Below, one piece after another: positions 1,527 through 64,000 of a stretch of 64,000 nucleotides of DNA. The DNA is from Candidatus Enterousia sp. GTDB taxonomy: Bacteria > Pseudomonadota > Alphaproteobacteria > Rs-D84. Position 1 is the first letter of the stretch; every line of letters begins with the position of its first letter. The position numbers were made by a program, and so were the translations under genes. Below the pieces are notes generated by a model. It ran no database searches and had not been told where the DNA came from. It worked only from the letters and a program-made list of their open reading frames with translations. Location of the stretch: the NCBI GenBank assembly GCA_045546075.1, contig JAZQCF010000008.1:17137-81136 (forward strand). The letters are read 5' to 3'.

Positions 1527-1836
1527 TTTCAAAATACCGGGTTTCTGGTGCCAGGCACCCGGCCGGCCCCGCAAAAAGCCAAACGGATATAACCAACAAT
1601 CGCCAATTATATCCAACCTATCTATTAGGCAGCCATTGCAAGACGAACATTATCGTTCGCATTCATTTTTTTATTGGTCTTTAACGACACCACGTCGAAT
1701 TCAGCCATTTGCCTTTATCACGTCTGTCGAAACTTATACACCCCCCATATTTTTCTTGGTGGAGGTGCCGGGTACCGCCCCCGGGTCCAAAACGTCTATT
1801 CCACAACGGGTTCAGAATTATCATCACATACGTGAT
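1527..1836 (-). ncRNA. ssrA: Circularly permuted (two-piece) tmRNA gene
   Basis: The minus strand reads ...GGACCCGGGGGCGGTACCCGGCACCTCCACCA. This is a T-arm-like hairpin CCGGG/CCCGG abutting the acceptor 3' strand CACCTCC, then A and CCA at 1757-1759. After a 10-nt spacer comes GGGGGGTGTATAAGTTTCGAC (5' acceptor strand giving a G3:U70 pair, plus the TTCGAC box). A tag frame and a 3' hairpin with T-run near 1527-1560 follow. The ends are approximate. Confidence 0.75.
1625..1660 (-). other. tmRNA tag reading frame ANDNVRLAMAA with double stop
   Basis: GCG AAC GAT AAT GTT CGT CTT GCA ATG GCT GCC TAA TAG on the minus strand. The ANDN... start and ...AA end are typical of alphaproteobacterial tags. 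Confidence 0.7.
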
Positions 1837-1842
1837 ATAACG

Positions 1843-1870
1843 ATTATAATCTTTATACTGGAAATTGCAA
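1843..1870 (-). promoter_or_regulatory. Sigma70-like promoter for ssrA
   Basis: TTGCAA (1865-1870), 16-nt spacer, TATAAT (1843-1848) on the minus strand. Confidence 0.5.
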
Positions 1871-1878
1871 GTTTTTAA

Positions 1879-16790: not shown

Positions 16791-17975
16791 TTATTTACCG
16801 AAAATCATAACCATAATATTTTTCCACGCGCGTCCAAAGAATTGAATTTTTGACACTTTGTTTTTCGCAACCAGTTTTCCACGCGCAATCACGCGCCCAT
16901 TTTGTTCTGCGATAATTTCGCCCAACGTGTCGCCAACGCGTACCGGCGCGGCAACCGGGTCATTGTATCGTGCCAATACACGCACCCCGCGTAAACCGGC
17001 ATCTTTGCCGGTTGTAACCGCAAATGTCTTGTCAACGGTTGCAACAACGGTGTCCGCCCGCCCGTACCAAACGGGCACATTTGTCACATCGTCGCCCGGG
17101 CGATAGAACACGCGTGTTGCGGTGGTTGTGAACCCGTGGGTCAGCAATTTTTTCATCTCGGCCGCCAACCCATCGTGTCCTTTGCCGTTAAATCCGTTTA
17201 TAACCCCGATTAAGCGACGACCGCCGGATGTGGCACTGGCCACCATACCATAGCCGCCTTTGTCCGTATGCCCGGTCTTTAATCCATCCGCCCCCGGCAT
17301 AATAAACAGCAATTTATTATAGTTCACTGTATGTGTCCGTCCCCAATCGCGGCACCAATCGGTCTTATAATCATTAAATTCAAACCGTTTCGTTGCGAAC
17401 ATAGGGTATAAATCCGGATAGTCTGCGATTAAATGATACGCCAGTGTTGCCAATTCCCGACTTGTCATCAAATTGTTTGGATTGGGCAATCCCGACGCAT
17501 TCCCAAATGTAGATTGTGGCATACCGATTGCGCGCGCCTTGGATTGCATCATTTCTGTAAATTTAACCTCGGTCCCCGCCAAAGATTCGGCAACAACAAC
17601 GGATGCATCACCCCCAGATAAAACGATTAATCCCAAAATCACATCACGCACACTAATTGTTTGCCCGGCGGACAGGCAAATCTTGCTTGCCGGGTACCAT
17701 TCGGGTTTTTGATAGTCCGCATTTTCGCCAACGGTTAATTTATCGTCCAAGGACAGTTCGCCGGATTTAATTTTATCGAACAACACCGCCAACGTCATCA
17801 GTTTCAGCATCGAAGACGGTGGCATCAGTGTATCGGCCGCCTTGGTCACAATTTCGGCACCGGAATCATAGTCAATTAAAAACGCGGATTTTGCGGTTGT
17901 CTTGAATTCTGCCGCGCCCGCGGTCGTGGTTGCGGCAACGATAAACGATAAAATCGTGGGATAAATCTTTTTCAT
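16791..17975 (-). CDS. D-alanyl-D-alanine carboxypeptidase (PBP5/6-like, peptidase S11)
   Basis: Signal peptide, SSMLK (SxxK) and KTGHT motifs. Confidence 0.85.
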   Translation of the reverse strand: MKKIYPTILSFIVAATTTAGAAEFKTTAKSAFLIDYDSGAEIVTKAADTLMPPSSMLKLMTLAVLFDKIKSGELSLDDKLTVGENADYQKPEWYPASKICLSAGQTISVRDVILGLIVLSGGDASVVVAESLAGTEVKFTEMMQSKARAIGMPQSTFGNASGLPNPNNLMTSRELATLAYHLIADYPDLYPMFATKRFEFNDYKTDWCRDWGRTHTVNYNKLLFIMPGADGLKTGHTDKGGYGMVASATSGGRRLIGVINGFNGKGHDGLAAEMKKLLTHGFTTTATRVFYRPGDDVTNVPVWYGRADTVVATVDKTFAVTTGKDAGLRGVRVLARYNDPVAAPVRVGDTLGEIIAEQNGRVIARGKLVAKNKVSKIQFFGRAWKNIMVMIFGK

Positions 17976-18032
17976 ACCTTTATCATAACAACAAGATTTT
18001 TCATTTCAAACAGATTTTTTATAAAAATGCGC

Positions 18033-18062
18033 TTGACCCCGATTGTGCATTTTTGATAAAGT
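18033..18062 (+). promoter_or_regulatory. Promoter of leader copy 1 / F2
   Basis: TTGACC, 18-nt spacer, TAAAGT. Homologous to 23943 and 51494. Confidence 0.55.
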
Positions 18063-18067
18063 GTATT

Positions 18068-18290
18068 TGAACACGGATGGGAATCCGGTTCGGGGCCCTG
18101 AGAAGCCCATACTATCCGGTGCCAAGGACATCGTAATTCCACGATTTCCATTTTTTGGCATCGATATATTCCCCGAATTTGTTGGTTCGGGGTGCGGTGG
18201 TTATATAACAGGCATTGCCGAAGCCCACTGGGATTACTGATAGTATGATTTCTCAACGCCCCGACCGTCATTTCCATTGACGGTTCTTTT
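18068..18290 (+). promoter_or_regulatory. Structured 5' leader copy 1 (candidate riboswitch/attenuator) with terminator 18264-18290
   Basis: One of three homologous leaders with covarying hairpins (18119-18161, 18171-18192). An antiterminator segment overlaps the terminator ACCGTCA...TGACGGT-TCTTTT. The TSS is inferred. Confidence 0.6.
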
Positions 18291-18318
18291 ACACCAAAAT
18301 GGAAAGGGGGAGTACACA

Positions 18319-19074
18319 ATGCACAAAAAATTACTGTTCGGTTTAATCGGCGCGATTGTTGCAACAAACGCATTTGCGAACCAAATTGTCACAAGTCAAA
18401 CATACGTTGATAATATGGACGCATTAAAACAAGATAAAATTACCGCCGGTACCACAGGGGCGGTTGTCACATATAATGGCGAGATAGACGGTCAGGCACA
18501 ATTCAGCGAGCAGGCGATTTATGATGGTACAACAACATATGATGCCACGACAGATGCGAATAAACTTGTTACCGCCGGGGCGGTATCAAATATGGCACCG
18601 GCATTACCAACCGGAACGGCAAACGCCGCGGTTACATACGATGCCAACGGTAATATTGGCGGCGAACGGGGGATTTGGTCCTATGATTATCAATTTTATG
18701 GAGGCAGTGTCGACTATATGCAATCTTTTAAAGATAATTTAACTACGCTCGATAGTGTTAGAAGCGCGCTAGATTATGTGTCAACGGATATAACCAGTGT
18801 TATGCCGAATGGGGATAGTGCAACCAGAATGCTACCGGTGTTTAGGAACGACTATGATTCGCAGTATTCTAATAAAGATAAGTTTTGGAAAGTGATGATT
18901 ACAAATTCAATCAACGGGGAAAATAAGTGGGATACGTATAATTTAATTCCAAGTCTTATGGCGGTAAATGCGGGGTTGGATACCAAACAATCCAAAAAGG
19001 TTTGTGTCCGTTGGTTGCCAGATGTCGTCGAACAAACGGATGAAACCTGCCTGTTGTGGGATTTGCCGGACTAG
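18319..19074 (+). CDS. Secreted YVD/CLLW-family protein, paralog F2 (251 aa)
   Basis: GGGGGAG RBS, signal ending AFA, VTSQTYVDNMDALKQDKITAG..VVTY, TAGAV, C-terminal CLLW. Confidence 0.7.
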   Translation: MHKKLLFGLIGAIVATNAFANQIVTSQTYVDNMDALKQDKITAGTTGAVVTYNGEIDGQAQFSEQAIYDGTTTYDATTDANKLVTAGAVSNMAPALPTGTANAAVTYDANGNIGGERGIWSYDYQFYGGSVDYMQSFKDNLTTLDSVRSALDYVSTDITSVMPNGDSATRMLPVFRNDYDSQYSNKDKFWKVMITNSINGENKWDTYNLIPSLMAVNAGLDTKQSKKVCVRWLPDVVEQTDETCLLWDLPD

Positions 19075-20318
19075 ACGCGCGTTCCAATCAATACCCCACC
19101 ATCCGTGCCTGTGATTTTTATATCGCAAATTGTGCGGGCGGGAATTGGTGCGCCGGAAATGCGTACCGGAATGTCGTCCGGTGTGCGCGCCATATTGTTT
19201 GATTCCACCATAACCGATGTCCGCGTCCCGACCAAGCCCGCCATAAATTCGCGCATATTTTCCGCCGCCGCATCGGTTATGATTTTAACGCGCCGTTTTG
19301 ATTCACTGCGCGGAACCTGGTTTTCCATTTCCGCCGCAACTGTGCCGGGGCGGGGCGAATACGGAAACGCGTGAACACGAATTGGTTTTAATTCGCGCAC
19401 CAATGATAAGGTTTCGTTAAATAATTCGTCTGTTTCCCCCGGAAAACCACAGATTATATCCCAACCGAAACTAACCCGGCTGGCCGCCAGTTTTACCAAT
19501 TCGCGTACCGTGTCCGCCGTGTGCCGCCGCCGCATCGCCCGCAAAATTGTATTTGAACCCGACTGCATAGAAAGATGCAGGTGCGGCATAAAACGTGCAT
19601 CGGTTTTCATCATTTCAATAATGTCACGAATAATCGGTACCGCCGGGTCAACCGAAGAGAGTCTCAACCGCCGTAACCCCGGCACATCATCTAATAACCG
19701 CCGGCACAGGTCATTTAACAAAAATGGCCGGCCATCATAATTCTTAATATATGATGCCGCATCTACACCGGTCAGGACAATTTCCCCAAATCCGTCCTTG
19801 GTCGCGCGGCATACGTCCGCCAATATATCATCGTATTCAAATGACACCGCCGGCCCCCGCAACAGGCGCGTCACACAATATGTGCAATCGTGATTGCAAC
19901 CATTTTGAACCTGGACAAACTTTTTCGATAATTCTGTGGTGCCGTCAAAGTTTCCCGCGAACGAATTGCCGCGTGTGCAGTCAGCCGACGCGCCCAAATA
20001 TGCACTCGGGTTCATCTTTTGCGCGTTGGGAATAACAACCGTGCCGGGAATTTTTTGAAACATTTCCGGGTTGCGTGTCGCGCCGCACCCGGTCACAAAG
20101 ATTGTCATGCCGGGATTTTCGCGTGCAATTTTTCGCACCGTTTGGCCACATTGACGTTCGGCTTCCCCGGTGACGGAACAAGTATTCACAACAACGCCGC
20201 AAATTCCGTGCGCCGCCAACATATTTTTTATCTTTTCGCATTCCAACGCGTTCAGCCGGCAACCGAAAGACAAAGTTTTTATATCATTTTTATCATTTTC
20301 TACTTGCATTTTTACCAT
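19071..20318 (-). CDS. mtaB: Radical-SAM methylthiotransferase (MiaB/MtaB family)
   Basis: FGCRLN N-terminal domain and CNHDCTYC radical-SAM cluster. Its stop overlaps the F2 stop (CTAG). Confidence 0.75.
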   Translation of the reverse strand: MVKMQVENDKNDIKTLSFGCRLNALECEKIKNMLAAHGICGVVVNTCSVTGEAERQCGQTVRKIARENPGMTIFVTGCGATRNPEMFQKIPGTVVIPNAQKMNPSAYLGASADCTRGNSFAGNFDGTTELSKKFVQVQNGCNHDCTYCVTRLLRGPAVSFEYDDILADVCRATKDGFGEIVLTGVDAASYIKNYDGRPFLLNDLCRRLLDDVPGLRRLRLSSVDPAVPIIRDIIEMMKTDARFMPHLHLSMQSGSNTILRAMRRRHTADTVRELVKLAASRVSFGWDIICGFPGETDELFNETLSLVRELKPIRVHAFPYSPRPGTVAAEMENQVPRSESKRRVKIITDAAAENMREFMAGLVGTRTSVMVESNNMARTPDDIPVRISGAPIPARTICDIKITGTDGGVLIGTRV

Positions 20319-20368
20319 CCTTGGGGCATTATAGCGAGACGAAAATATATTTCAACAAAGGATTTATA

Positions 20369-20758
20369 ATGGCACGTACAACAAATTCTGACACATTACC
20401 ATTTGTGGAAAGCAGATATGAACTGGGGATGCTGGCATCTCAGCGGGTTCGCGATTTGAACGGTGGGGCCACACCGGTTGTGGAACGTGGAAACGACAAA
20501 CCAACGGTGACGGCGCTGCGCGAAATTGCAAGTGGAAAATTAGATGTCGCAAATTTGCGTCACGAATTTGTGCAATCTTACAAAGAAACACCGGTTGTTG
20601 AAAATGCCGAAGAAACGCTTGAAGTCAACAGCGTTGACCCGGCACTGCGCGAAATTGACGCGGAATTGGAAGAATCATTGGTGACCGAAGACCCGGTTGA
20701 TGCCGCCGATTTGGTTGCCGAAGATGTCGCCGACGATGATTCGGGTGACGACGAATAA
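20369..20758 (+). CDS. rpoZ: RNA polymerase omega subunit with acidic tail
   Basis: SRYELGMLASQRVRDL core and a C-terminal D/E-rich extension. Confidence 0.75.
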   Translation: MARTTNSDTLPFVESRYELGMLASQRVRDLNGGATPVVERGNDKPTVTALREIASGKLDVANLRHEFVQSYKETPVVENAEETLEVNSVDPALREIDAELEESLVTEDPVDAADLVAEDVADDDSGDDE

Positions 20759-20770
20759 ATAACTGAATCC

Positions 20771-20861
20771 GGAGATGTCGCATAGTTGGTCTAGTGCGCC
20801 ACATTGGAAATGTGGTATACGGGCAACCGTATCAAGGGTTCGAATCCCTTCATCTCCGCCA
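20771..20861 (+). tRNA. tRNA-Ser (anticodon GGA)
   Basis: GGAGATG acceptor, anticodon arm CCACA-TTGGAAA-TGTGG, long variable arm, GGGTTCGAATCCC, CCA encoded. Confidence 0.9.
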
Positions 20862-20869
20862 CAAAAATC

Positions 20870-20896
20870 AAACGCCCATTTGGGCGTTTTGTTTTT
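20870..20896 (+). terminator. Intrinsic terminator after tRNA-Ser
   Basis: AAACGCCCA-TTT-GGGCGTTT followed by TGTTTTT. Confidence 0.7.
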
Positions 20897-21004
20897 GTGT
20901 TGTCGATTCCGGGATTCGAACCCGGGGTTAAGGGTTCGAACCGCAGCCGAAAGGCAGACGAGAGTCGGCCGGTGAGCAAAGCGAATGAGGCAAGGTGGCG
21001 AAGC

Positions 21005-21023
21005 AATCCCTTCATCTCCGCCA
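21005..21023 (+). repeat. 19-nt direct duplicate of tRNA-Ser(GGA) 3' end
   Basis: AATCCCTTCATCTCCGCCA is identical to 20843-20861. Confidence 0.8.
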
Positions 21024-21029
21024 GAATAA

Positions 21030-21068
21030 AATCTTAAAAATCCGCGACTGCGGATTTTTTGATTTTAT
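21030..21068 (+). repeat. 39-nt direct repeat (copy 1) containing a terminator hairpin
   Basis: AATCTTAAAAATCCGCGACTGCGGATTTTTTGATTTTAT is identical to 21202-21240. Confidence 0.85.
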
Positions 21069-21069
21069 A

Positions 21070-21086
21070 GGCGGAGATGAAGGGAT
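21070..21086 (-). repeat. Inverted copy of tRNA-Ser(GGA) 3' end
   Basis: GGCGGAGATGAAGGGAT is the reverse complement of ATCCCTTCATCTCCGCC. Confidence 0.75.
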
Positions 21087-21201
21087 GTGTGCGAGCGCAG
21101 CGCAGCACACAATCCGCGAATAAACAATTAGAAAAATCATAAAAATCGCCGGAACAAGATTTTTATAGATTTTAATTATTGTTTATCAAGACAACCAATT
21201 T

Positions 21202-21240
21202 AATCTTAAAAATCCGCGACTGCGGATTTTTTGATTTTAT
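21202..21240 (+). repeat. 39-nt direct repeat (copy 2)
   Basis: Identical to 21030-21068. Confidence 0.85.
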
Positions 21241-21329
21241 GTTTTGGAAATTCTTGGTAAAAAATCCACTTGCCCGGTGCGGGGAAAATCTGTATCATAG
21301 ATTCCCGTAGAGCAGGGGAACAATTTATT

Positions 21330-23936
21330 ATGAAATATCGTGGATTGACCGCCGCCGCGGTCACGCAAAGTCGCGAAAAATATGGCGCAAACACTATGCC
21401 GGAACCACATGCGAAAACCGCATGGGAATTTTTATTGGATGTGTTTCGCGATAAAATAAACATTATTTTATTGATAATGACGATTATATTCGCGGTCCTT
21501 GCGATATTGGGCTTTGGCGAATTAACCGAGGCATTGGGTATCGGGGCGGTCTTGGTTATTGTATGTGTTGTAAATGTTATTACCCACCTGCGCGCGCAAC
21601 ACAGTACCATCGAACTGCGTCGCCGCGCATCAAAACAGATGTGCAATGTCGTGCGTGCCGGACGCGTGCGCAACATAGACAGCACAGAAATCGTCGTTGG
21701 CGATATAGTTTTAATTTCGGCGGGCGAAACAATTCCGGCCGATGGATATATCGTATCGGGACATGTGGAAGTAAATAATTCCGTCCTTAATGGCGAAAGT
21801 GATGAAGTTCATAAATCACCGGTTGCAAATTTCAAGTATAACCGCGATGCCACCGTGACGGCGGATGATTATACCGATGCGAATCATGTCTTTGCGGGAA
21901 CAACGGTTCATGGCGGCGGGGGCGCAATGATTGTGACGCGCGTTGGCATGGACACCGAAAATGCAAAAATCTTGCGCGCGGTCGGCGATGTCCGCGAAGT
22001 AAAAACGACATTACAATTACAACTGGACCGGGTTGCGCGTGTAATTGGAAAATTTGGTGCGATATGTGCGATTGTGGTTGCGGCGTGTATGATAATATTT
22101 CACCTGGTCGCGTCCAATGCGCACGGCGTTGGGAACATTGTTTATATTGTTGTGTCGGCGATAACACTGGCATTGACGATTTTTGTTGCCGCCGTTCCCG
22201 AAGGACTGCCGTTTATCATAGAAATCATTACATCCCAAAATGCACACAAAATGACACGGGCGAATCTGTTGGCAAAAAATCCCCATAAAATCCCAGAGGC
22301 CGGAAATATACAATTACTCTGTACCGACAAAACCGGCACGATTACATTTGGCCGTATGCAGCCGGTTGCAAATTACCTTGGCGATGGGACAAATGTCGGG
22401 TTTGCGGTCCGGTCGATTGGTGCCACGGCCGAAATTGCGAATAATATCGTCCTGAACGGGCGTGCAATGTTGGATGCAAACGGCAATATAGTCGGCGGAA
22501 ACACGACGGAAAGGGCGCTGTTCGGGGCAATGAATTTAACTGCGCACCGCATCGCAACCATTCGCCGCGAAAATCATATCGTTGCAAAAATCCCATTCGC
22601 CAGTGCACATAAATTTTCGGCCACAACCGTGCGCGGTCCAAACGGCACGCGAACATATGTTATGGCGGCCCCAGAAATCATATTGGCGCACGCGAACCGG
22701 TATATTGATACGGATGGTGCGGTTCATTCTATGCGCGGGTCCAAGGTAAAACGTTTAATGGTGTCAAATGCGCGCCGTGCGATGCGTGTAATTGCAACCG
22801 CGTATTATGATGGCGCAATATCGGGTAATGCCGTGCCAGACAATTTGGTCTTTATTGCGTTGTCCATTATGCGGGACGAAGTTCGCCCCGGTGTCGCCGA
22901 TGTGGTTGGCGCGATGCATGAATCGGGTGTTCGTGTTATGATGATAACGGGCGATAATTTGGAAACCGCGCGGGTTATCGCAACGGAATCGGGCATCATA
23001 TCAAACGACCAAGACATCGCAATATCGGCCACCGAATTTGATGCTTTGCCGGATGCGCGGGCGCGTCGAATGTTGCCCAAGATATCTGTGATTGCGCGTG
23101 CAACACCATACACTAAATTGCGCATGGTTGAATTGGCGCGTATGGATGGAATAAGTATAGGTATGTGTGGCGACGGCACGAACGATGCGCCGGCACTGCG
23201 CGCCGCCGATGTGGGCTTTGCCATGGGCGACAGTACCGATGTATGCAAAGGCGCAAGCGATATAATCATTGTCGATAATAATTTTATATCTATCGCGAAC
23301 AGTATTTTGATGGGGCGCACATTTATGCATAATGTGGTTGGATTTTTGCGGTTTCAATTACCGATAAACTTTATCTTGGTCGCGGTCAGCATTCTGTTCC
23401 CGCTGTTTTTAGGCTTTGATGCGATAATGGCGGTCCAGATTTTGATTATAAACATTATTATCGACAGTTTGAATTCTTTGGCATTTGGTGGCGAAGCGGC
23501 ACGACCCGAATATATGCGCGAACCCGTGCATGGTAAAAATTCGCCATTGATTACGCGTGAAACATTGCGCGGTGTTATTTGGACAACGGTGGTCGGCGTG
23601 TTCATAGTGTCCATTACCACAACGCCGGCGGCAATGCGTTTGTTTGGCAATGCGGACGTGGCGTTGTCGGCCCGTTTCGCATTGATAATTATTGTTGCGA
23701 TGTTAAATGGTTTTTGCGTGCGTGCGCCGGGGTATAATATATTTTCGGGATTGCGTGCGAACCCAATGTTTGTGGCGGTGGCGGCGTTTGTGTTTGTGGG
23801 AACATACCTGTGCGTGACATTTGGTGGCGCGGCATTACACCTGACCCCAATGGGGTGGGAACAATGGTTTGTTGTTGCGGGATTGGGACTGTGCGTTGTT
23901 CCATTAAATATGCTTTATAAAAGAATCTTTCGATAA
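21330..23936 (+). CDS. P-type cation-transporting ATPase (Ca2+/P2-type-like)
   Basis: AGGGGAA RBS, CTDKTGTIT phosphorylation site, MITGDN, GDGTNDAPAL, multiple TM segments. Confidence 0.85.
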   Translation: MKYRGLTAAAVTQSREKYGANTMPEPHAKTAWEFLLDVFRDKINIILLIMTIIFAVLAILGFGELTEALGIGAVLVIVCVVNVITHLRAQHSTIELRRRASKQMCNVVRAGRVRNIDSTEIVVGDIVLISAGETIPADGYIVSGHVEVNNSVLNGESDEVHKSPVANFKYNRDATVTADDYTDANHVFAGTTVHGGGGAMIVTRVGMDTENAKILRAVGDVREVKTTLQLQLDRVARVIGKFGAICAIVVAACMIIFHLVASNAHGVGNIVYIVVSAITLALTIFVAAVPEGLPFIIEIITSQNAHKMTRANLLAKNPHKIPEAGNIQLLCTDKTGTITFGRMQPVANYLGDGTNVGFAVRSIGATAEIANNIVLNGRAMLDANGNIVGGNTTERALFGAMNLTAHRIATIRRENHIVAKIPFASAHKFSATTVRGPNGTRTYVMAAPEIILAHANRYIDTDGAVHSMRGSKVKRLMVSNARRAMRVIATAYYDGAISGNAVPDNLVFIALSIMRDEVRPGVADVVGAMHESGVRVMMITGDNLETARVIATESGIISNDQDIAISATEFDALPDARARRMLPKISVIARATPYTKLRMVELARMDGISIGMCGDGTNDAPALRAADVGFAMGDSTDVCKGASDIIIVDNNFISIANSILMGRTFMHNVVGFLRFQLPINFILVAVSILFPLFLGFDAIMAVQILIINIIIDSLNSLAFGGEAARPEYMREPVHGKNSPLITRETLRGVIWTTVVGVFIVSITTTPAAMRLFGNADVALSARFALIIIVAMLNGFCVRAPGYNIFSGLRANPMFVAVAAFVFVGTYLCVTFGGAALHLTPMGWEQWFVVAGLGLCVVPLNMLYKRIFR

Positions 23937-23942
23937 AAGTCC

Positions 23943-23971
23943 TTGACCGGGATATGCGTTTTTGATAGAAT
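23943..23971 (+). promoter_or_regulatory. Promoter of leader copy 2 / F3
   Basis: TTGACC, 17-nt spacer, TAGAAT. Confidence 0.6.
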
Positions 23972-23977
23972 AGCAAA

Positions 23978-24190
23978 TGAATCGGATGGGAATCCGTTTC
24001 GGGGCTGTAGCAGGCCTATGTGTATCCGGTGCAATGCATCGTAATCCGTTGCGATTTCCGTGTTTTTGCACCGCAATATTACCCCAATAGTGGTTGGGGT
24101 GCCGGTGGTGTATATATAAATATCATCGGGATCGTTGATACACATGATTTGCTAACACCCCGACCGTCAATTCCCATTGACGGTTGTTTT
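23978..24190 (+). promoter_or_regulatory. Structured 5' leader copy 2 (candidate riboswitch/attenuator) with terminator 24163-24190
   Basis: Homologous to 18068-18290, with hairpins 24028-24072 and 24082-24099. A 10-bp alternative helix GGTTGGGGTG:CACCCCGACC overlaps the terminator stem. Confidence 0.6.
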
Positions 24191-24212
24191 ATACCAAAAA
24201 AGAGGGAATTCA

Positions 24213-25097
24213 ATGAGCAAAAAATTACTTTTCGCCATAATCGCGACAATTTGTACCACCACCGCATTCGCAGATTCAAAAACTATAACGACCCAGGATT
24301 ATGTAGATACAAATTTCCAAACAAAGATTCCCGCTACATCATCAGATCTTGAATGGGTAACAAAAACTTTGGTGGCAACAACGGACACCGCCGGTCAAGT
24401 TGAACAAATAGGGGTTTATAGTTCTGATCTAGAAGATTACGGTGGTAGTAGTTATTTGCCACAATACAATTTGGATATTAATAGTTTCAACATGATTAAC
24501 AATGTTATTCCTACATATGCAAGTACGTATATGGATAAAGAGCAGCTTCGGCTTGATATGTATGGGAATATGCAAATACGAATTCCCAGAAGTGGTGAAA
24601 TAGTATACGAATATGGGGTTGGCGACAATGGTCCCTATACAAGTTCGTTAACAATGACTACTTGGAATAATCCTTGGTGGTTGCGTAATGATGTCAAAGG
24701 GACCGGTTTGGTTACCAAAACAAGTACCGATGGCGGTGTTGGTGAACGTCAAATTATTGAAACGGCGGATGTTGCAAATTATGGGACCGGCACCGCCACC
24801 GAACAACAAATTCAAGAAATATCTATTCCCACAATGGGGGCGGTTATGGCGGCAATTTCAAATAATACCCCCTCATTACCAACGGGGACGGCGGGAAATG
24901 TCGTCACATATAACGCATCCGGTCAAATCGGTGGTTCGGTTGCAACATATAACGGTTCGACCACATACAACGCATCAACCGATGCATCGAAAATCGCGGT
25001 TATGTCCGCGGTGCAACGCAAAATGACCTGTGCGCAGTATGTTCAAAATGCCGCAGAAACACCGGAAAACTGCCTGTTATGGAACGTGCTAGATTAA
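24213..25097 (+). CDS. Secreted YVD/CLLW-family protein, paralog F3 (294 aa)
   Basis: Signal ending AFA, TTQDYVDTNFQTKI, NVVTYNASGQIGG, TMGAV, C-terminal TC...NCLLW. Confidence 0.7.
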   Translation: MSKKLLFAIIATICTTTAFADSKTITTQDYVDTNFQTKIPATSSDLEWVTKTLVATTDTAGQVEQIGVYSSDLEDYGGSSYLPQYNLDINSFNMINNVIPTYASTYMDKEQLRLDMYGNMQIRIPRSGEIVYEYGVGDNGPYTSSLTMTTWNNPWWLRNDVKGTGLVTKTSTDGGVGERQIIETADVANYGTGTATEQQIQEISIPTMGAVMAAISNNTPSLPTGTAGNVVTYNASGQIGGSVATYNGSTTYNASTDASKIAVMSAVQRKMTCAQYVQNAAETPENCLLWNVLD

Positions 25098-46985: not shown

Positions 46986-47115
46986 AAAAAATCCCCGCGT
47001 TTGCGGGGATTTTGAAATAGGCAAAAATTATTTTGCTTCTTTTGCGACCTTTTCGTTCGCGGTTGCGGACAAATCTTCCACAATACGTGCCTTTTTACCG
47101 GACAGTTTGCGCAAA
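46986..47115. repeat. 130-bp direct repeat A (rplS 3' end plus terminator)
   Basis: About 95% identical (6 mismatches) to 48466-48595, at an offset of 1480 bp. Confidence 0.9.
47028..47115 (-). pseudogene. Displaced 3' fragment of rplS
   Basis: Encodes ...[28 protein letters not shown], matching the rplS C-terminus (48508-) but with no upstream gene body. Confidence 0.85.
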
Positions 47116-48465: not shown

Positions 48466-48595
48466 AAAAAATCCCCGCATTTGCGGGGATTTTGAAATAG
48501 GCAAAAATTATTTTGCTTCTTTTGCGGTCTTTTCGTTCGCGGTTGCAGACAAATCTTCCACAATACGCGCCTTTTTACCGGACAATTTGCGCAAA
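48466..48595. repeat. 130-bp direct repeat B (functional rplS 3' end plus terminator)
   Basis: Partner of 46986-47115. The terminator is AAAATCCCCGC-ATTT-GCGGGGATTTT. Confidence 0.9.
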
Positions 48596-48906
48596 AAGAA
48601 CAATTTCGCACGACGCACACGGCCGATACGAACCTTTTCAATTTTTTCGATTGCCGGGCTGTACAACGGGAATTTGCGTTCCACACCCACGCCGTATGAT
48701 TCGCGACGAACGGTGAAAGACGCGGTATTACCCATACCACCATCACGTGCAATAACAACGCCTTCGAATAACTGAATACGGAATTTGTCGCCATCTTTGA
48801 TTTTTACATGCACGCGCAGTGTATCACCGGCCTTGAAATTCGGGATTGTTTTACCCGCACGCATTTTTTCAACATTTTGTTGTTCTATTTTTTTTACAAT
48901 GTTCAT
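48508..48906 (-). CDS. rplS: 50S ribosomal protein L19
   Basis: [33 protein letters not shown]. Confidence 0.92.
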
Positions 48907-51393: not shown

Positions 51394-51420
51394 AAAAATA
51401 ATGCGGGGCGAATGCCCCGC
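51394..51420 (-). terminator. Orphan intrinsic terminator upstream of the rpsP promoter
   Basis: GCGGGGC-ATTC-GCCCCGC followed by ATTATTTTT on the minus strand. Confidence 0.5.
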
Positions 51421-51467
51421 ACACTAACCCATTGTCGCGACGGAGCACACAAAGTGTGCGTAGACGG

Positions 51468-51487
51468 AACTAACACTAACCACTAAT
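51468..51487 (-). repeat. Stop-rich heptamer repeat copy (orphan)
   Basis: Minus strand TTAGTGGTTAGTGTTAGTT, the same 18-nt core as at 53602. Confidence 0.7.
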
Positions 51488-51493
51488 TTTCTC

Positions 51494-51525
51494 TTGACCC
51501 CGAATCGTGTTTTTTGTTAGAATGT
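51494..51525 (+). promoter_or_regulatory. Promoter of leader copy 3 / F4-F5
   Basis: TTGACC, 18-nt spacer, TAGAAT. Confidence 0.6.
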
Positions 51526-51531
51526 ATTTGA

Positions 51532-51730
51532 ACCAATGGGAAGCCATTCTCGGTTCGGGCTGTCGTAGGCCCACATCTTGGACGGCACACAATTTTTTTG
51601 GGTGTGCCAAATACCCCGCCTGTCGGGGTGCCGATGGTTATAATGCGCTGTCAAAAGGCCTATCGGGATCAACTTCCAAGATGTGATTTACGAACACCCC
51701 GACCGTCTGTTTTCCACGACGGTTTATTTA
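51532..51730 (+). promoter_or_regulatory. Structured 5' leader copy 3 (candidate riboswitch/attenuator) with terminator 51702-51730
   Basis: Homologous to copies 1 and 2, with compensated hairpins 51584-51608 and 51614-51628. GTCGGGGTG:CACCCCGAC is an alternative helix. The terminator is ACCGTC...GACGGT-TTATTT. Confidence 0.6.
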
Positions 51731-51774
51731 TACACAAAACAATCCCTGTGAGGGGGAAAGGAGAAAAACAAGCG

Positions 51775-52329
51775 ATGAAAAATTCCAAAATTCTATTATT
51801 TGGCGCGGTGGTGTCGGTATTGACATCGGGCGCATTTGCCGCAACAACAACCCAAACCGTCACGACCCGGGGTTATGTTGATACCGCGGTTGCGACCAAA
51901 CAGAATAAATTATCCGGCACGTCCGGTTATGCCGTCACATACGGCGCAAGCGCGGGTACAACGGATGAACGGCAAATCGTAACATCACTTGGGTCGGACA
52001 CGACGGCGACGACATTGCCGACAACGGGCGCGGTGGTTGCGGGCCTGAACGCTAAACAAAATACATTAAACGGCGCGGCAAACAGTGTTATTACATATAC
52101 CGGCACGGCGGGCGGCACCGGTTCCAAGGGTGTGTACCAGGCATCAGGTTCGTATTCATCCCAAACAAACAATTTGGCCGAGGCCGGACATGTAAACACG
52201 GCGGTTGCGAACGCGTTTAATGCACATTTAACATGCAATACATACGCAACGCCGGGTGATAGCAGCAGTGATTGTTTGCTCTGGAATGTGAACAATTTGT
52301 CGGGCACATATATGCCAGAGAATCAATAA
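51775..52329 (+). CDS. Secreted YVD/CLLW-family protein, paralog F4 (184 aa)
   Basis: GGAG RBS, signal ending AFA, TTRGYVDTAVATKQNKL, AVTYG, TTGAV, LTC...DCLLW. Confidence 0.7.
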   Translation: MKNSKILLFGAVVSVLTSGAFAATTTQTVTTRGYVDTAVATKQNKLSGTSGYAVTYGASAGTTDERQIVTSLGSDTTATTLPTTGAVVAGLNAKQNTLNGAANSVITYTGTAGGTGSKGVYQASGSYSSQTNNLAEAGHVNTAVANAFNAHLTCNTYATPGDSSSDCLLWNVNNLSGTYMPENQ

Positions 52330-52425
52330 CCGTCATACCGATGTAAATCGGTATCTTGTCGGTTCAAGATGCAGATAGGGTATCAGGCGGTTGCAAAGAG
52401 ATCCCGTGTCAAGCACGGGATGACG
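52330..52425. repeat. MITE-like palindromic element between F4 and F5
   Basis: CCGTCATACCGAT-GTAA-ATCGGTATC ... GATCCCGTG-TCAAG-CACGGGATGACG. The termini match the GTCAT(A/C)CCG arms of the GIY-YIG cassette, and it starts at the first nt after the F4 stop. Confidence 0.7.
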
Positions 52426-52442: not shown

Positions 52443-53459
52443 ATGAAACTATCAAAATACGGTTTTAATGTTGCATTGGCTTTATTATTGGTGCCAGGAA
52501 TTATAGGTTCTGCATTTGCTGACACGGGCACAATAACCAGTCGTGAATATGTTGATGATTTGTTGGATACCAAACAGGCGCAAATTCCTGCATTAAACAC
52601 GAACACAATTGTTACATATGGCACAAGCGATGGAGTGATTGGTCAACAAACGATAGTAACCGCGCTGGGGACGGACGCAACGGCGACAACATCCCCAACC
52701 GCTGGCGCAGTGAATACCGGATTAAGTGCAAAACAAAATATAGCGAACGGTACGGCGAACTATGTTATGACCGGCACCGGCACCGCCGGCACACTCGGCG
52801 AAAAACCGGTCTACAGCGCGACAACAAACTACACAAATGCCTTGGTGACGGCACAAACAATCAACACCGCCGCCATGGACGCCGCCAACAGTGAACTGAC
52901 CTGTATCGATAACGATTGCCTGCTGTGGCAGATTCGCACCACAACCCCATCCGGCCTATCCATACGAATAGATTTTAATCCAGACACAAGTATTAGCGGG
53001 ACATCTGTTTGTTGGCGTAATTTATCTAATGAAGGAAACTATGCAAATTACGATGGTACATGCAGCGCATCAACATTATCATATATTGGGGCCAGTGGAA
53101 GCAAAAGTGGCAAATGGGGGACAGTATTTTCGTATGGAGACGTTAGCGGGATAAGTGTGTGTAGTTCAACAACAAAAAATTCGGTGGGGACAATAGTTGC
53201 CACGGATGCACAGGCAGCGGTATTAGACAGTGAGTATCTTGCACAAACGGGTATCGGACTCGGTGATACGGAATTAAATACAAATTACCATTGTTGGTGT
53301 AAAATGGAAAATCCCGGAACTTCAAAATGGATTTATGTACGGACTTTGAACTATGGTGGTACCAGATGTTCCGATATATGTGTAAATGATTGCGCGCGCG
53401 ATGTACGGGACAATAGTAGTGGCAATTTTAGGACAACCATGTATGGCACGATAAATTAA
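52443..53459 (+). CDS. Secreted YVD/CLLW-family protein, paralog F5 (338 aa) with extra Cys-rich C-terminal domain
   Basis: Signal ending AFA, TSREYVDDLLDTKQAQI, IVTYG, TAGAV, LTC..DCLLW, then ~170 additional aa. Confidence 0.7.
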   Translation: MKLSKYGFNVALALLLVPGIIGSAFADTGTITSREYVDDLLDTKQAQIPALNTNTIVTYGTSDGVIGQQTIVTALGTDATATTSPTAGAVNTGLSAKQNIANGTANYVMTGTGTAGTLGEKPVYSATTNYTNALVTAQTINTAAMDAANSELTCIDNDCLLWQIRTTTPSGLSIRIDFNPDTSISGTSVCWRNLSNEGNYANYDGTCSASTLSYIGASGSKSGKWGTVFSYGDVSGISVCSSTTKNSVGTIVATDAQAAVLDSEYLAQTGIGLGDTELNTNYHCWCKMENPGTSKWIYVRTLNYGGTRCSDICVNDCARDVRDNSSGNFRTTMYGTIN

Positions 53460-63853: not shown

Positions 63854-64000
63854 TTATATCAACGATTTTCCGGTCATATCAAGGGGCTTTGGCACGCCCA
63901 ACAATTTTAATATCGTTGGCGCAACATCGGCCAATCCACCGTTTTTAATCTTTTTGTATTTTGGTTCGCCAACCATAATCGCGCGAACCTTGTTGTTGGT
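63854..64000 (-). CDS. gpmI: 2,3-bisphosphoglycerate-independent phosphoglycerate mutase, C-terminal 48 aa (partial)
   Basis: Reverse translation gives ...[29 protein letters not shown], which matches the GpmI C-terminus. It is open at the window end. Confidence 0.75.

What the first reader, a model, noticed from the sequence alone, without database searches (positions are those of the whole stretch)
51494..51774. Leader copy 3 (before the F4-F5 tandem): the most divergent copy, supplying the compensatory changes
The primary sequence differs most here: there is a GCCATTC insertion after GGGAA, a shortened hairpin A, and a different terminator loop. Every helix is nevertheless retained through compensating substitutions (GGCACAC/GTGTGCC, CCCCG/CGGGG, ACCGTC/GACGGT), and the CACCCCGACCGTC box is identical. 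That pattern is what selection on RNA structure predicts, rather than a recent duplication.
Basis: seen in the sequence. Interest (0 to 1): 0.7.

Follow-up and report, generated by a model that had tools for sequence, protein, structure and literature searches.

The report
Structured leader RNA before surface-protein genes
The flagged region is a real copy of a roughly 245-base folded RNA leader, absent from Rfam, that ends in a transcription terminator and precedes highly variable secreted-protein genes in uncultured rumen-type Alphaproteobacteria; it probably works as an on/off switch whose trigger is unknown.

Summary
Window 51494-51774 is the most divergent of three paralogous leaders (68-69% identical to the copies at 18033-18318 and 23943-24212). 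Each has a sigma-70 promoter, about 245 nt of structured RNA and a hairpin plus U-tract about 45 nt before a secreted-protein gene.

In a structure-guided comparison, copy 3 differs from copies 1 and 2 by 18 and 16 compensatory pairs, against 1 and 2 lost pairs.

Thirty-odd further distinct leaders from metagenomes support the fold. 92-96% of pair cells are standard pairs, against 33-49% in slid controls. 33-34 pairs carry double changes, and 0 of 500 shuffles reach the observed values.

- an 8-10 bp helix (P2) that closes a junction of three hairpins;
- a hairpin-loop triplet that is the exact reverse complement of a triplet about 125 nt downstream in every leader examined. This is either a pseudoknot or an alternative closing helix.

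No Rfam 15 family matches, and the downstream proteins match no curated protein family.

Best reading: a new family of terminator-coupled sensor leader (riboswitch-like or protein-dependent attenuator) controlling a variable surface-protein repertoire. The effector and the exact switching pairings are inferred, not shown.

The parts
51494..51523 (+). Promoter of leader copy 3: -35 TTGACC (51494-99), 18-nt spacer, TG-extended -10 TAGAAT (51518-23). The predicted transcript starts just before the 5' hairpin.
   Evidence: 10 of 12 matches, TG present. The same elements are conserved in the 33-leader alignment.
51530..51556 (+). P0, the 5'-terminal hairpin: GAACC/GGTTC base, CTC bulge, AATGG/CCATT top, loop GAAG. 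It is 7 nt longer than in copies 1 and 2.
   Evidence: P0 pairs covary in 33 leaders (helices 1-2). The orthologue L064 has a GAAA loop.
51557..51572 (+). S1, a local hairpin: GGGC (51557-60) / GCCC (51569-72). Its 8-nt loop carries TCGTAG (51563-68).
   Evidence: S1 cells are 97.7-100% paired, with GGAC/GUCC and GGGU/ACCC double changes.
51688..51693 (+). S2, 3' strand TTACGA, pairing with the S1 loop TCGTAG (51563-68). This is either a pseudoknot or the middle of an alternative closing helix.
   Evidence: The triplet is the exact reverse complement in 33 of 33 leaders, with 9 triplet types; a tenth type occurs in L046b. 98% of cells are paired although this helix was not part of the covariance model.
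51573..51582 (+). P2, 5' strand ACATCTTGGA. It pairs with 51675-51684.
   Evidence: 99% paired; 8 of 9 pairs covary.
51675..51684 (+). P2, 3' strand TCCAAGATGT. P2 closes the junction that holds hairpins A, B and C.
   Evidence: duplex energy of a leader's own strands -11.3 kcal/mol, against -3.5 +/- 2.1 when strands from different leaders are combined.
51584..51608 (+). Hairpin A, the short form: GGCACAC / GTGTGCC with an 11-nt loop.
   Evidence: The outer stem covaries in homologues (helix 4). About 60 nt with a conserved GCAUCGUAAUCC interior in most other leaders.
51612..51630 (+). Hairpin B: TACCCCG / CGGGGTG. The 3' arm GTCGGGGTG (51622-30) is also complementary to the box CACCCCGAC.
   Evidence: (helix 10). 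GGGGTG is invariant in 33 leaders.
51631..51666 (+). Hairpin C: CCGATGG / CCTATCGG, with an AU-rich interior.
   Evidence: helix 12 and helix 6; 7 of 8 pairs covary.
51695..51707 (+). Box CACCCCGACCGTC. It is unpaired in the pseudoknot fold. It is complementary to the 5' GGTTCGGG(G) and to the hairpin B 3' arm. Its last 7 nt form the terminator's 5' arm.
51701..51731 (+). Intrinsic terminator: GACCGTC (51701-07), loop TGTTTTCCAC, GACGGTT (51718-24), then the U-tract TTTATTTAT.
   Evidence: The stem covaries in L046b (ACTGTC/GACAGT). The simple scanner did not report it; I attribute this to the 10-nt loop exceeding the scanner's limit of 8.
51775..52329 (+). F4: a 184-aa secreted protein (signal peptide, TRGYVD..KQNK module, C-terminal CLLW). 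The ribosome-binding site GGGGGAAAGGAG lies at 51752-63.
   Evidence: No match in Pfam, NCBIfam or PHROGs.
52443..53459 (+). F5: a 338-aa paralogous secreted protein, probably co-transcribed with F4. No promoter or U-tract terminator lies in the 113-nt gap.
18033..18318 (+). Leader copy 1, upstream of F1 (18319-19074).
   Evidence: core 18089-18263, 111.8 bits.
23943..24212 (+). Leader copy 2, upstream of F2 (24213-25097).
   Evidence: core 23998-24162, 170 bits.

Best explanation
The region is one member of a previously uncatalogued family of cis-acting 5' leader RNAs that control transcription read-through into genes for secreted, highly variable surface proteins.

What is shown or read directly from sequence:
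- A sigma-70 promoter starts the transcript at a 5' hairpin (P0).
- A compact core follows. A small hairpin (S1) has a loop that pairs with a strand about 125 nt downstream (S2). An 8-10 bp helix (P2) closes a junction carrying hairpins A, B and C.
- A C-rich box (CACCCCGACC) follows the core and runs into a hairpin plus U-tract terminator about 45 nt before the start codon.
- No promoter lies between the terminator and the gene, so the gene is expressed only by read-through.

What is inferred:
- When the core is fully folded (S1 and S2 formed, P0 and hairpin B closed), the box has no partner, the terminator forms and transcription stops.
- When S1 is not held, one of two G-rich strands captures CCCCGACC. 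These strands are GGUUCGGGG at the P0/S1 border and GGUCGGGGUG of hairpin B. Capture removes the terminator's 5' arm and transcription reads through.
- An effector that stabilises or destabilises the core sets the balance. I lean slightly towards a small ligand (riboswitch) over a dedicated RNA-binding protein. Its identity is unknown.
For: Structure:
- Covariation is strong on an unguided alignment, on a covariance-model alignment and in RNAalifold's own prediction (24 of 48 pairs with compensatory change).
- The triplet complementarity holds in 33 of 33 leaders.
- P2 strands from the same leader pair far better than strands combined from different leaders.
- The G.U versus A.C asymmetry fixes the strand.

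Cis-regulatory role:
- The promoter is conserved.
- The terminator is present in the minimum-free-energy fold of 25 of 33 leaders, and its stem covaries where the search pattern did not fix it (L046b).
- The start codon lies 40-55 nt after the box in most loci, with a ribosome-binding site directly after the U-tract.
- Nearly all downstream genes encode signal-peptide proteins. 34 of about 45 loci carry the same F family, and one carries a GT2-like glycosyltransferase.
- L004 has a leader identical to copy 1 although its protein is only 71% identical. The orthologue of copy 3 in another metagenome keeps every helix.

Switch:
- S1 and the long-range GGGG:CCCC pairing exclude each other. S1 is the one kept by double changes.
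- In transcripts truncated before the terminator's 3' arm, the 5' arm pairs with the P0 3' strand in 16 of 33 leaders.
- For copies 1 and 3 that fold lies within 1-2 kcal/mol of the terminator fold.
- GGGGUG of hairpin B is invariant beyond what hairpin B needs.
- A divergent leader type (L005, L065) changes box, hairpin B and loop pairing together: CCUCCAACC with GGUUGGAGG, and UAACGAC/GUCGUUA against UCAAGAC/GUCUUGA.
Against: - No experiment or transcript data are available. Termination, read-through and any ligand are all unproven.
- The box and the terminator 5' arm were fixed by my metagenome search pattern, so their invariance in that set carries no information.
- The hairpin B-to-box antiterminator is about 12 kcal/mol less stable than the terminator fold in RNAfold.
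- RNAfold cannot score the pseudoknot, so the relative stability of the proposed states is unknown.
- The alternative in which P0 pairs with the terminator region still places a helix directly before the U-tract. It might terminate as well.
- The regulated genes are not metabolic, so they give no hint of a ligand.
- No conserved neighbouring regulator gene was found.
- The divergent L005 type is not recognised by the covariance model. Its relation to this family rests on architecture and context only.
Confidence: 0.6

Rival explanations
1. Protein-dependent attenuation. The conserved core is the binding site of a trans-encoded RNA-binding protein or a NusG-like antiterminator that decides between termination and read-through, so that the variable surface-protein genes are regulated together. 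No small ligand is involved.
For: - The regulated genes form a surface-protein regulon rather than a metabolic pathway.
- Many paralogues in related genomes use what look like invertible promoters instead of the leader. Elsewhere (Bacteroides capsule loci, from my own knowledge) that kind of system is combined with leader-specific antitermination factors.
- Long conserved stretches such as GCAUCGUAAUCC in hairpin A and GUAUAUAUA in hairpin C could be protein contacts.
Against: - No conserved regulator gene lies next to the leaders in about 45 loci.
- Hairpin A, with its conserved interior, is dispensable in copy 3 and six other leaders.
- A roughly 165-nt pseudoknotted multi-helix core is larger than typical protein-binding attenuator sites (from my own knowledge).
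Confidence: 0.28
2. There is no sensing. The element is a constitutive structured 5' UTR or a stand-alone small RNA. It gives a fixed partial termination, or stabilises the mRNA through a 5' hairpin and compact fold. Terminated transcripts may act in trans.
For: - The 5'-terminal hairpin and very stable fold (z = -5.3) are typical of stabilising leaders.
- The terminator fold is the minimum-free-energy fold in most leaders.
- Terminated leaders of about 200 nt would be discrete RNAs.
Against: - A stabiliser would not need a pseudoknot with strict loop-triplet complementarity, a conserved box that mimics the hairpin B 5' arm, or mutually exclusive covarying pairings.
- A strong terminator 45 nt before the start codon with no downstream promoter would simply silence the gene.
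Confidence: 0.1
3. The element is a neutral repeat, either a recently duplicated upstream region or a DNA-level recombination cassette border, with no RNA-level function. Alternatively, the structure belongs to the opposite strand.
For: - The leader travels with exchangeable F-gene cassettes (L004 against copy 1; L065 against L002).
- A resolvase gene sits next to one locus.
- The minus strand folds about as well thermodynamically.
Against: - Compensatory changes outnumber disruptive ones about 10 to 1, and 0 of 500 shuffles reach the observed covariation.
- G.U exceeds A.C 203 to 25 on the + strand.
- The promoter, the U-tract and the gene all lie on the + strand.
Confidence: 0.02

Closest known systems
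Terminator-coupled riboswitches (for example SAM-I, and c-di-GMP-I/II, which control adhesin and pilus genes)
   Same: - A 5' leader with a multi-helix, pseudoknot-containing conserved core supported by covariation.
- An intrinsic terminator directly downstream.
- A strand next to the terminator's 5' arm that has alternative partners.
- The c-di-GMP classes also regulate surface proteins (from my own knowledge).
   Different: - No Rfam 15 covariance model matches any of the three copies, even at E up to 1-10.
- No ligand is known or suggested by gene context.
- No GGDEF motif was seen in the 393 kb held.
- The distribution appears limited to one lineage of uncultured Alphaproteobacteria.
Cobalamin riboswitch kissing-loop expression platform
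   Same: A loop on the sensor side is complementary to the loop of the regulatory hairpin. Here the top of P0 (AUGGGAAU) matches the top of the terminator (AUUCCCAU or AUUUCCAU), with z below -1.64 in 17 of 35 leaders and covarying cases.
   Different: - The partner here is a terminator, not a hairpin holding a ribosome-binding site.
- The complementary stretch includes stem nucleotides, so it may mean strand exchange rather than a kissing contact.
- It is absent in about half of the leaders.
- There is no sequence or structure homology. The comparison rests on my own knowledge.
Classical multi-segment attenuators and protein- or tRNA-dependent leaders (trp 1-2-3-4, PyrR, BglG/SacY RAT, T-box, EAR/LoaP, Bacteroides UpxY leaders)
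   Same: - Repeated mutually complementary segments: CGGGG, CCCCG, CGGGGUG, CACCCCG.
- A terminator whose 5' arm can be captured.
- Like the Bacteroides UpxY leaders, it is linked to a variable surface repertoire.
   Different: - There is no conserved leader peptide. The only ATG-led frame stops after 10-34 codons at different places in the three copies and has no ribosome-binding site (read from the sequences).
- There is no T-box or other Rfam match.
- No cognate regulator gene lies in the loci.

Membership tests
Any described RNA family (Rfam 15, 4227 covariance models, including all riboswitch classes, T-box, EAR and leader families) | A covariance-model match at or near the family's gathering score | tested here: not met
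   (whole window, gathering score): only tmRNA and tRNAs matched. Searches (51400-51800, E up to 10; 17950-24300, E up to 1): nothing overlaps any leader copy.
Riboswitch (generic) | A conserved structured aptamer domain supported by covariation, located in a 5' UTR | tested here: met
   promoter; gene start 40-55 nt after the element.
Riboswitch (generic) | An expression platform with mutually exclusive terminator and antiterminator pairings | tested here: inconclusive
   The terminator is present. Two candidate competitors exist for its 5' arm, and S1 excludes the GGGG:CCCC pairing. The box was fixed by the search pattern, and no energy model for the pseudoknot was available.
Riboswitch (generic) | Direct, specific binding of a small-molecule or ion ligand by the RNA | not testable with these tools
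   This needs in-line probing, SHAPE or ITC with candidate ligands.
Intrinsic (Rho-independent) terminator | A G+C-rich stem directly followed by a U-tract on the transcribed strand | tested here: met
   GACCGTC-N10-GACGGTT followed by TTTATTTAT at 51701-51731. The stem is 96% paired in 33 leaders (helix 13) and covaries in L046b. The simple scanner did not report it; I attribute this to the loop exceeding the scanner's limit of 8 nt.
Leader-peptide (ribosome-mediated) attenuator | A conserved short ORF with a ribosome-binding site inside the leader, overlapping segment 1 | tested here: not met
   The only ATG, in the P0 loop, opens frames of 19, 34 and 10 codons in copies 1, 2 and 3, with no ribosome-binding site (sequences). 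The substitution pattern is compensatory rather than codon-like.
c-di-GMP-I / c-di-GMP-II riboswitch | A match to RF01051 or RF01786, and c-di-GMP signalling genes in the organism | tested here: not met
   No covariance-model match. No GG[DE]EF motif in the 393 kb of window plus related loci; this is only a partial genome sample.

The most novel reading that the evidence does not exclude
This is a new riboswitch class. Its pseudoknotted core binds an unidentified small signal, such as a second messenger or a host- or rumen-derived metabolite. It toggles between a local hairpin (S1) and capture of the box to gate a terminator. In that way it couples an environmental cue to which members of a hypervariable, cassette-exchanging surface-protein repertoire are expressed in uncultured Alphaproteobacteria.
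Probability: 0.3. Interest if true: 0.8.

Novelty: new variant of a known kind. Interest (0 to 1): 0.62.

Why it matters
- Orphan structured leaders with this level of covariation support are the usual source of new riboswitch classes or new RNA-protein regulatory pairs.
- This leader controls genes that are not metabolic. They encode a fast-evolving family of secreted proteins with no recognised domain. Paralogues of that family in related genomes appear to use invertible promoters instead.
- If a ligand or factor is found, it would show how an uncultured, small-genome rumen bacterium decides which surface proteins to display.
- It would also add a sensor architecture in which a hairpin-loop pseudoknot competes with capture of a terminator arm.
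- Practically, the model and alignments made here (R1, A5, A8) allow the family to be annotated in rumen metagenomes.

Tried and rejected
- Rfam at relaxed thresholds on all three copies found nothing.
- Exact-protein look-ups of window proteins found the source genome is not on record.
- Pfam, NCBIfam and PHROGs on F1, F2, F4 and F5 gave no family.
- The AlphaFold2 model of F1 with a 29-sequence alignment had pLDDT 62 and pTM 0.31. This was too poor for a fold search, so none was run.
- Literature searches by topic and by sequence motif returned only unrelated papers and primer matches.
- The hairpin B-to-box antiterminator was considered as the sole switch. RNAfold puts it about 12 kcal/mol above the terminator fold, so it is kept only as one of two candidates.
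- Leader-peptide attenuation was rejected: there is no conserved ORF.
- c-di-GMP as the ligand has no supporting evidence.
- A locally encoded regulator was not found.
- The weak nhmmer hit at window 63883-63961 (E = 0.19) was rejected as noise.
- The covariance model does not detect the L005/L065 leader type or the L016 element. They are not counted as family members in the statistics.
- No conserved genes other than the F family lie next to the leaders, apart from syntenic housekeeping genes.

Full report
**1. What is at the coordinates**

Window 51494-51774 holds four things in order:
- a sigma-70 promoter, TTGACC-18-TG-n-TAGAAT, at 51494-51523;
- about 200 nt of G+C-balanced sequence;
- a hairpin plus U-tract at 51701-51731;
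- a ribosome-binding site and the ATG of a 184-aa signal-peptide protein, F4, at 51775.

F5 (52443-53459) follows F4. The gap between them has no promoter and no U-tract terminator.

Two paralogous leaders lie at 18033-18318, before F1, and at 23943-24212, before F2. Identities are 0.76 for copy 1 against copy 2, 0.69 for copy 1 against copy 3 and 0.68 for copy 2 against copy 3. Copy 3 is therefore the most divergent.

- a 7-nt longer 5' hairpin;
- a hairpin A reduced to 7 bp;
- a different terminator loop.

Two details need correcting. The box CACCCCGACCGTC is identical only to copy 2; copy 1 has one A-to-G change. Two of the three cited 'compensating' helices, CCCCG/CGGGG and ACCGTC/GACGGT, do not vary among the copies.

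**2. The fold**

The order of elements from 5' to 3' is:
- P0, the 5'-terminal hairpin;
- S1, a 4-bp hairpin (GGGC/GCCY) with an 8-nt loop;
- P2, an 8-10 bp helix that closes a junction;
- hairpin A, which is long in most leaders and short in copy 3;
- hairpin B (CCCCR/YGGGG);
- hairpin C;
- the 3' strand of P2;
- GA, then UU-NNN-A, which pairs with the S1 loop (S2);
- AAC and the box RCCCCGACC;
- the terminator.

For copy 3 the coordinates are given in the parts list.

RNAalifold, run without guidance on 33 sequences, recovers P0, the triplet helix, P2, B, C and the terminator. Because it cannot draw pseudoknots, it pairs the 5' GGG with the box CCC instead of forming S1.

**3.

I aligned the three copies helix by helix and classified each pair.

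| Comparison | Compensatory | One side changed, pair kept | Lost |
|---|---|---|---|
| Copy 3 vs copy 1 | 18 | 4 | 1 |
| Copy 3 vs copy 2 | 16 | 4 | 2 |

Copy 1 against copy 2 gives 11 compensatory pairs. The alignment is my own, and the five P0 changes depend on counting from the loop. Independent data were therefore needed.

**4. Homologues**

The downstream proteins form a family of at least 112 clusters. All named members come from uncultured Alphaproteobacteria MAGs.

A scan of species-representative genomes returned 18 loci. Most of their record titles name rumen MAGs (RUG14636, RUG585, RUG774, RUG10747), and three MAGs are named as from goat reticulum or water-buffalo rumen (RGIG3338, RGIG8245, RGIG8116). 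The window also carries an alpha-type two-piece tmRNA.

Only two of those 18 loci have a leader:
- L006, which is 95% identical to copy 1;
- L005, a much more divergent type.

A metagenome scan with TGATTTNNNAACRCCCCGACCGTC returned 41 loci. Together with the window copies, L004 and L006, these give 34 distinct full-length leaders that are 61-95% identical to the window copies. A profile search added two leaders that do not match the exact pattern, L063b and L046b.

**5. Covariation**

On the plain MAFFT alignment A5, using a structure derived from copy 2:
- 91.8% of 1928 pair cells are standard pairs, against 35-49% when partners are slid by 1-3 columns;
- 34 of 62 pairs carry double changes;
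- there are 246 double-change cells, against 36-58 in the slid controls;
- 0 of 500 column shuffles reach the observed value on any of the five measures.

The 3' triplet is the exact reverse complement of the loop triplet in 33 of 33 leaders, with nine triplet types. L046b adds a tenth, AAG/CUU.

P2 was tested separately. A leader's own strands form 8-10 contiguous pairs in 28 of 33 leaders, with a duplex energy of -11.3 kcal/mol. Strands taken from different leaders give -3.5 +/- 2.1 kcal/mol.

A covariance model of the core, R1, has 166 positions. On its alignment A8:
- 96.1% of cells pair;
- 33 of 38 pairs covary;
- P2 is 99% paired;
- S2 is 98% paired, although S2 was not part of the model.

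G.U cells outnumber A.C cells 203 to 25. The folded molecule is therefore the + strand RNA, even though both strands fold equally well in energy terms.

**6. Two pairings that exclude each other**

The 5' GGG(G)C can form S1, or it can pair with the box CCCC. S1 is the pairing preserved by double changes:
- GGAC/GUCC in L043 and L057, which creates an A.C mismatch in the long-range alternative;
- GGGU/ACCC in L063, L053 and L025;
- U.G in L063b and L046b.

S1 cells are 100% paired in A8.

If S1 and S2 form together, the RNA is an H-type pseudoknot and the box stays single-stranded next to the terminator.

**7. The expression platform (inference)**

The box CACCCCGACC is complementary to two strands:
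- GGUUCGGGG, which spans the P0 3' arm and the start of S1 (9 bp with one bulge);
- GGUCGGGGUG, the hairpin B 3' arm (9-10 bp).

Either pairing removes the first 2-3 nt of the terminator's 5' arm.

RNAfold gives the following:
- The terminator is in the minimum-free-energy fold of 25 of 33 leaders.
- The hairpin B-to-box fold is about 12 kcal/mol less stable.
- The fold in which P0 opens and its 3' arm extends the closing helix lies within 1-2 kcal/mol of the terminator fold for copies 1 and 3.
- That same fold is the minimum-free-energy fold of transcripts truncated before the terminator's 3' arm in 16 of 33 leaders.

GGGGUG of hairpin B is invariant although its UG is unpaired within hairpin B in most leaders.

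The top of P0 (AUGGGAAU) is complementary to the top of the terminator (AUUCCCAU or AUUUCCAU) more often than shuffled loops allow. Mean z is -1.57, and 17 of 35 leaders fall below -1.64. Matched changes occur in L047, L055 and L060. Whether this reflects a loop-loop contact or a full strand exchange is unresolved.

The divergent L005/L065 type keeps the whole architecture. It changes box (CCUCCAACC), hairpin B (CUCCAACC/GGUUGGAG) and the loop pairing (UAACGAC/GUCGUUA against UCAAGAC/GUCUUGA) together. R1 does not score it, so I treat it as supporting evidence only.

**8. What it controls**

Downstream genes are nearly always signal-peptide proteins:
- Most carry the N-terminal T-S-x-x-Y-V-D...K-Q-D-K module of the F family; 34 of about 45 loci do.
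- Some are other cysteine-rich or repeat-containing secreted proteins.
- One is a GT2-like glycosyltransferase.
- A few are small proteins.

No curated family matches F1, F2, F4 or F5, and the structure prediction was too poor to use.

The leader is conserved while the genes are swapped:
- L004 has a leader identical to copy 1 but a protein only 71% identical.
- L065 and L002 share the same flanking genes and the same leader type but carry different F genes.
- L029 has a copy-3-type leader before an unrelated F gene.
- L064, from a bioreactor metagenome, is the syntenic orthologue of copy 3. It keeps all helices and has a GAAA loop on P0.

**9. Verdict**

The helix list was incomplete.

The element is a real structured cis-acting leader RNA. 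It matches no Rfam 15 family, and I found no paper describing it. It most likely gates an intrinsic terminator.

The effector and the exact competing pairings are inferred. A protein-dependent mechanism is nearly as likely as a small-ligand one.

Noticed in passing
L007, L010, L013, L014 (RUG14636); L008, L018 (RUG585); L009, L011, L021 (RGIG3338); L020 (RGIG8116). About 30-200 nt upstream of the F-gene start at 1501.: These F-family paralogues have no structured leader. They are instead preceded by a roughly 100-130 bp segment flanked by inverted repeats (AAACCAAGGTTT ... AAACCTTGGTTT, or two copies of a repeat built around AAAGGTACCTTTTTGT). This looks like an invertible promoter, that is, a phase-variation switch. 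L015 and L016 show only one copy of the repeat.
   Followed up: partly
L065:164-763 (-), next to the leader at about 900-1130: A resolvase-family (PF00239) recombinase gene lies divergently next to a leader plus F-gene locus. Its flanking genes (RNase T, UvrD) are the same as in L001/L002, but the F gene differs. This suggests cassette exchange or inversion at the locus.
   Followed up: no
L004:5640-5910 compared with window 18041-18311: The leader is 100% identical to copy 1 while the encoded F1 homologue is only 71% identical. The N- and C-termini are conserved and the middle is replaced, which points to mosaic, recombining surface-protein genes behind a conserved leader.
   Followed up: partly
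L016:2832-2984 (-): A weak profile hit (E = 3e-5) has a hairpin-B-like CCCGA/TCGGGGTG and a CACCCCGAG box, but a different terminator and no matching loop triplet. The covariance model does not recognise it. It may be a degenerate or distant relative.
   Followed up: partly
window 1533-1874 (-): A two-piece (permuted) alpha-type tmRNA (RF01849, 167.9 bits). This is consistent with an alphaproteobacterial origin for the window.
   Followed up: no
window 46986-47115 and 48466-48595: A 130-nt direct repeat, 95% identical. It comprises the 3' end of the ribosomal protein L19 gene (rplS, 48508-48906, minus strand) and its terminator AAAAAATCCCCGC-TTTGCGGGGATTTT, duplicated 1.5 kb away.
   Followed up: partly
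window 21025-21068 and 21197-21240: A 44-nt direct repeat, 95% identical, containing a hairpin (AAAAATCCGCGACTGCGGATTTTT). It lies between a tRNA with a long variable arm (20771-20858) and an 888-aa ORF.
   Followed up: no
window 52337-52356 and 52402-52421: Two 8-bp hairpins (ATACCGAT-GTAA-ATCGGTAT and ATCCCGTG-TCAA-GCACGGGAT) lie in the F4-F5 gap without U-tracts. Their function is unknown.
   Followed up: no
L028:58-1000 (+) and L049 (-), downstream of their leaders: Two leaders precede genes outside the F family: a GT2-like glycosyltransferase (MKISVIIPVYNAEKYIEQTL...), and a 51-aa protein followed by a lactate/malate-dehydrogenase-like gene. The regulon therefore extends slightly beyond secreted proteins.
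   Followed up: no
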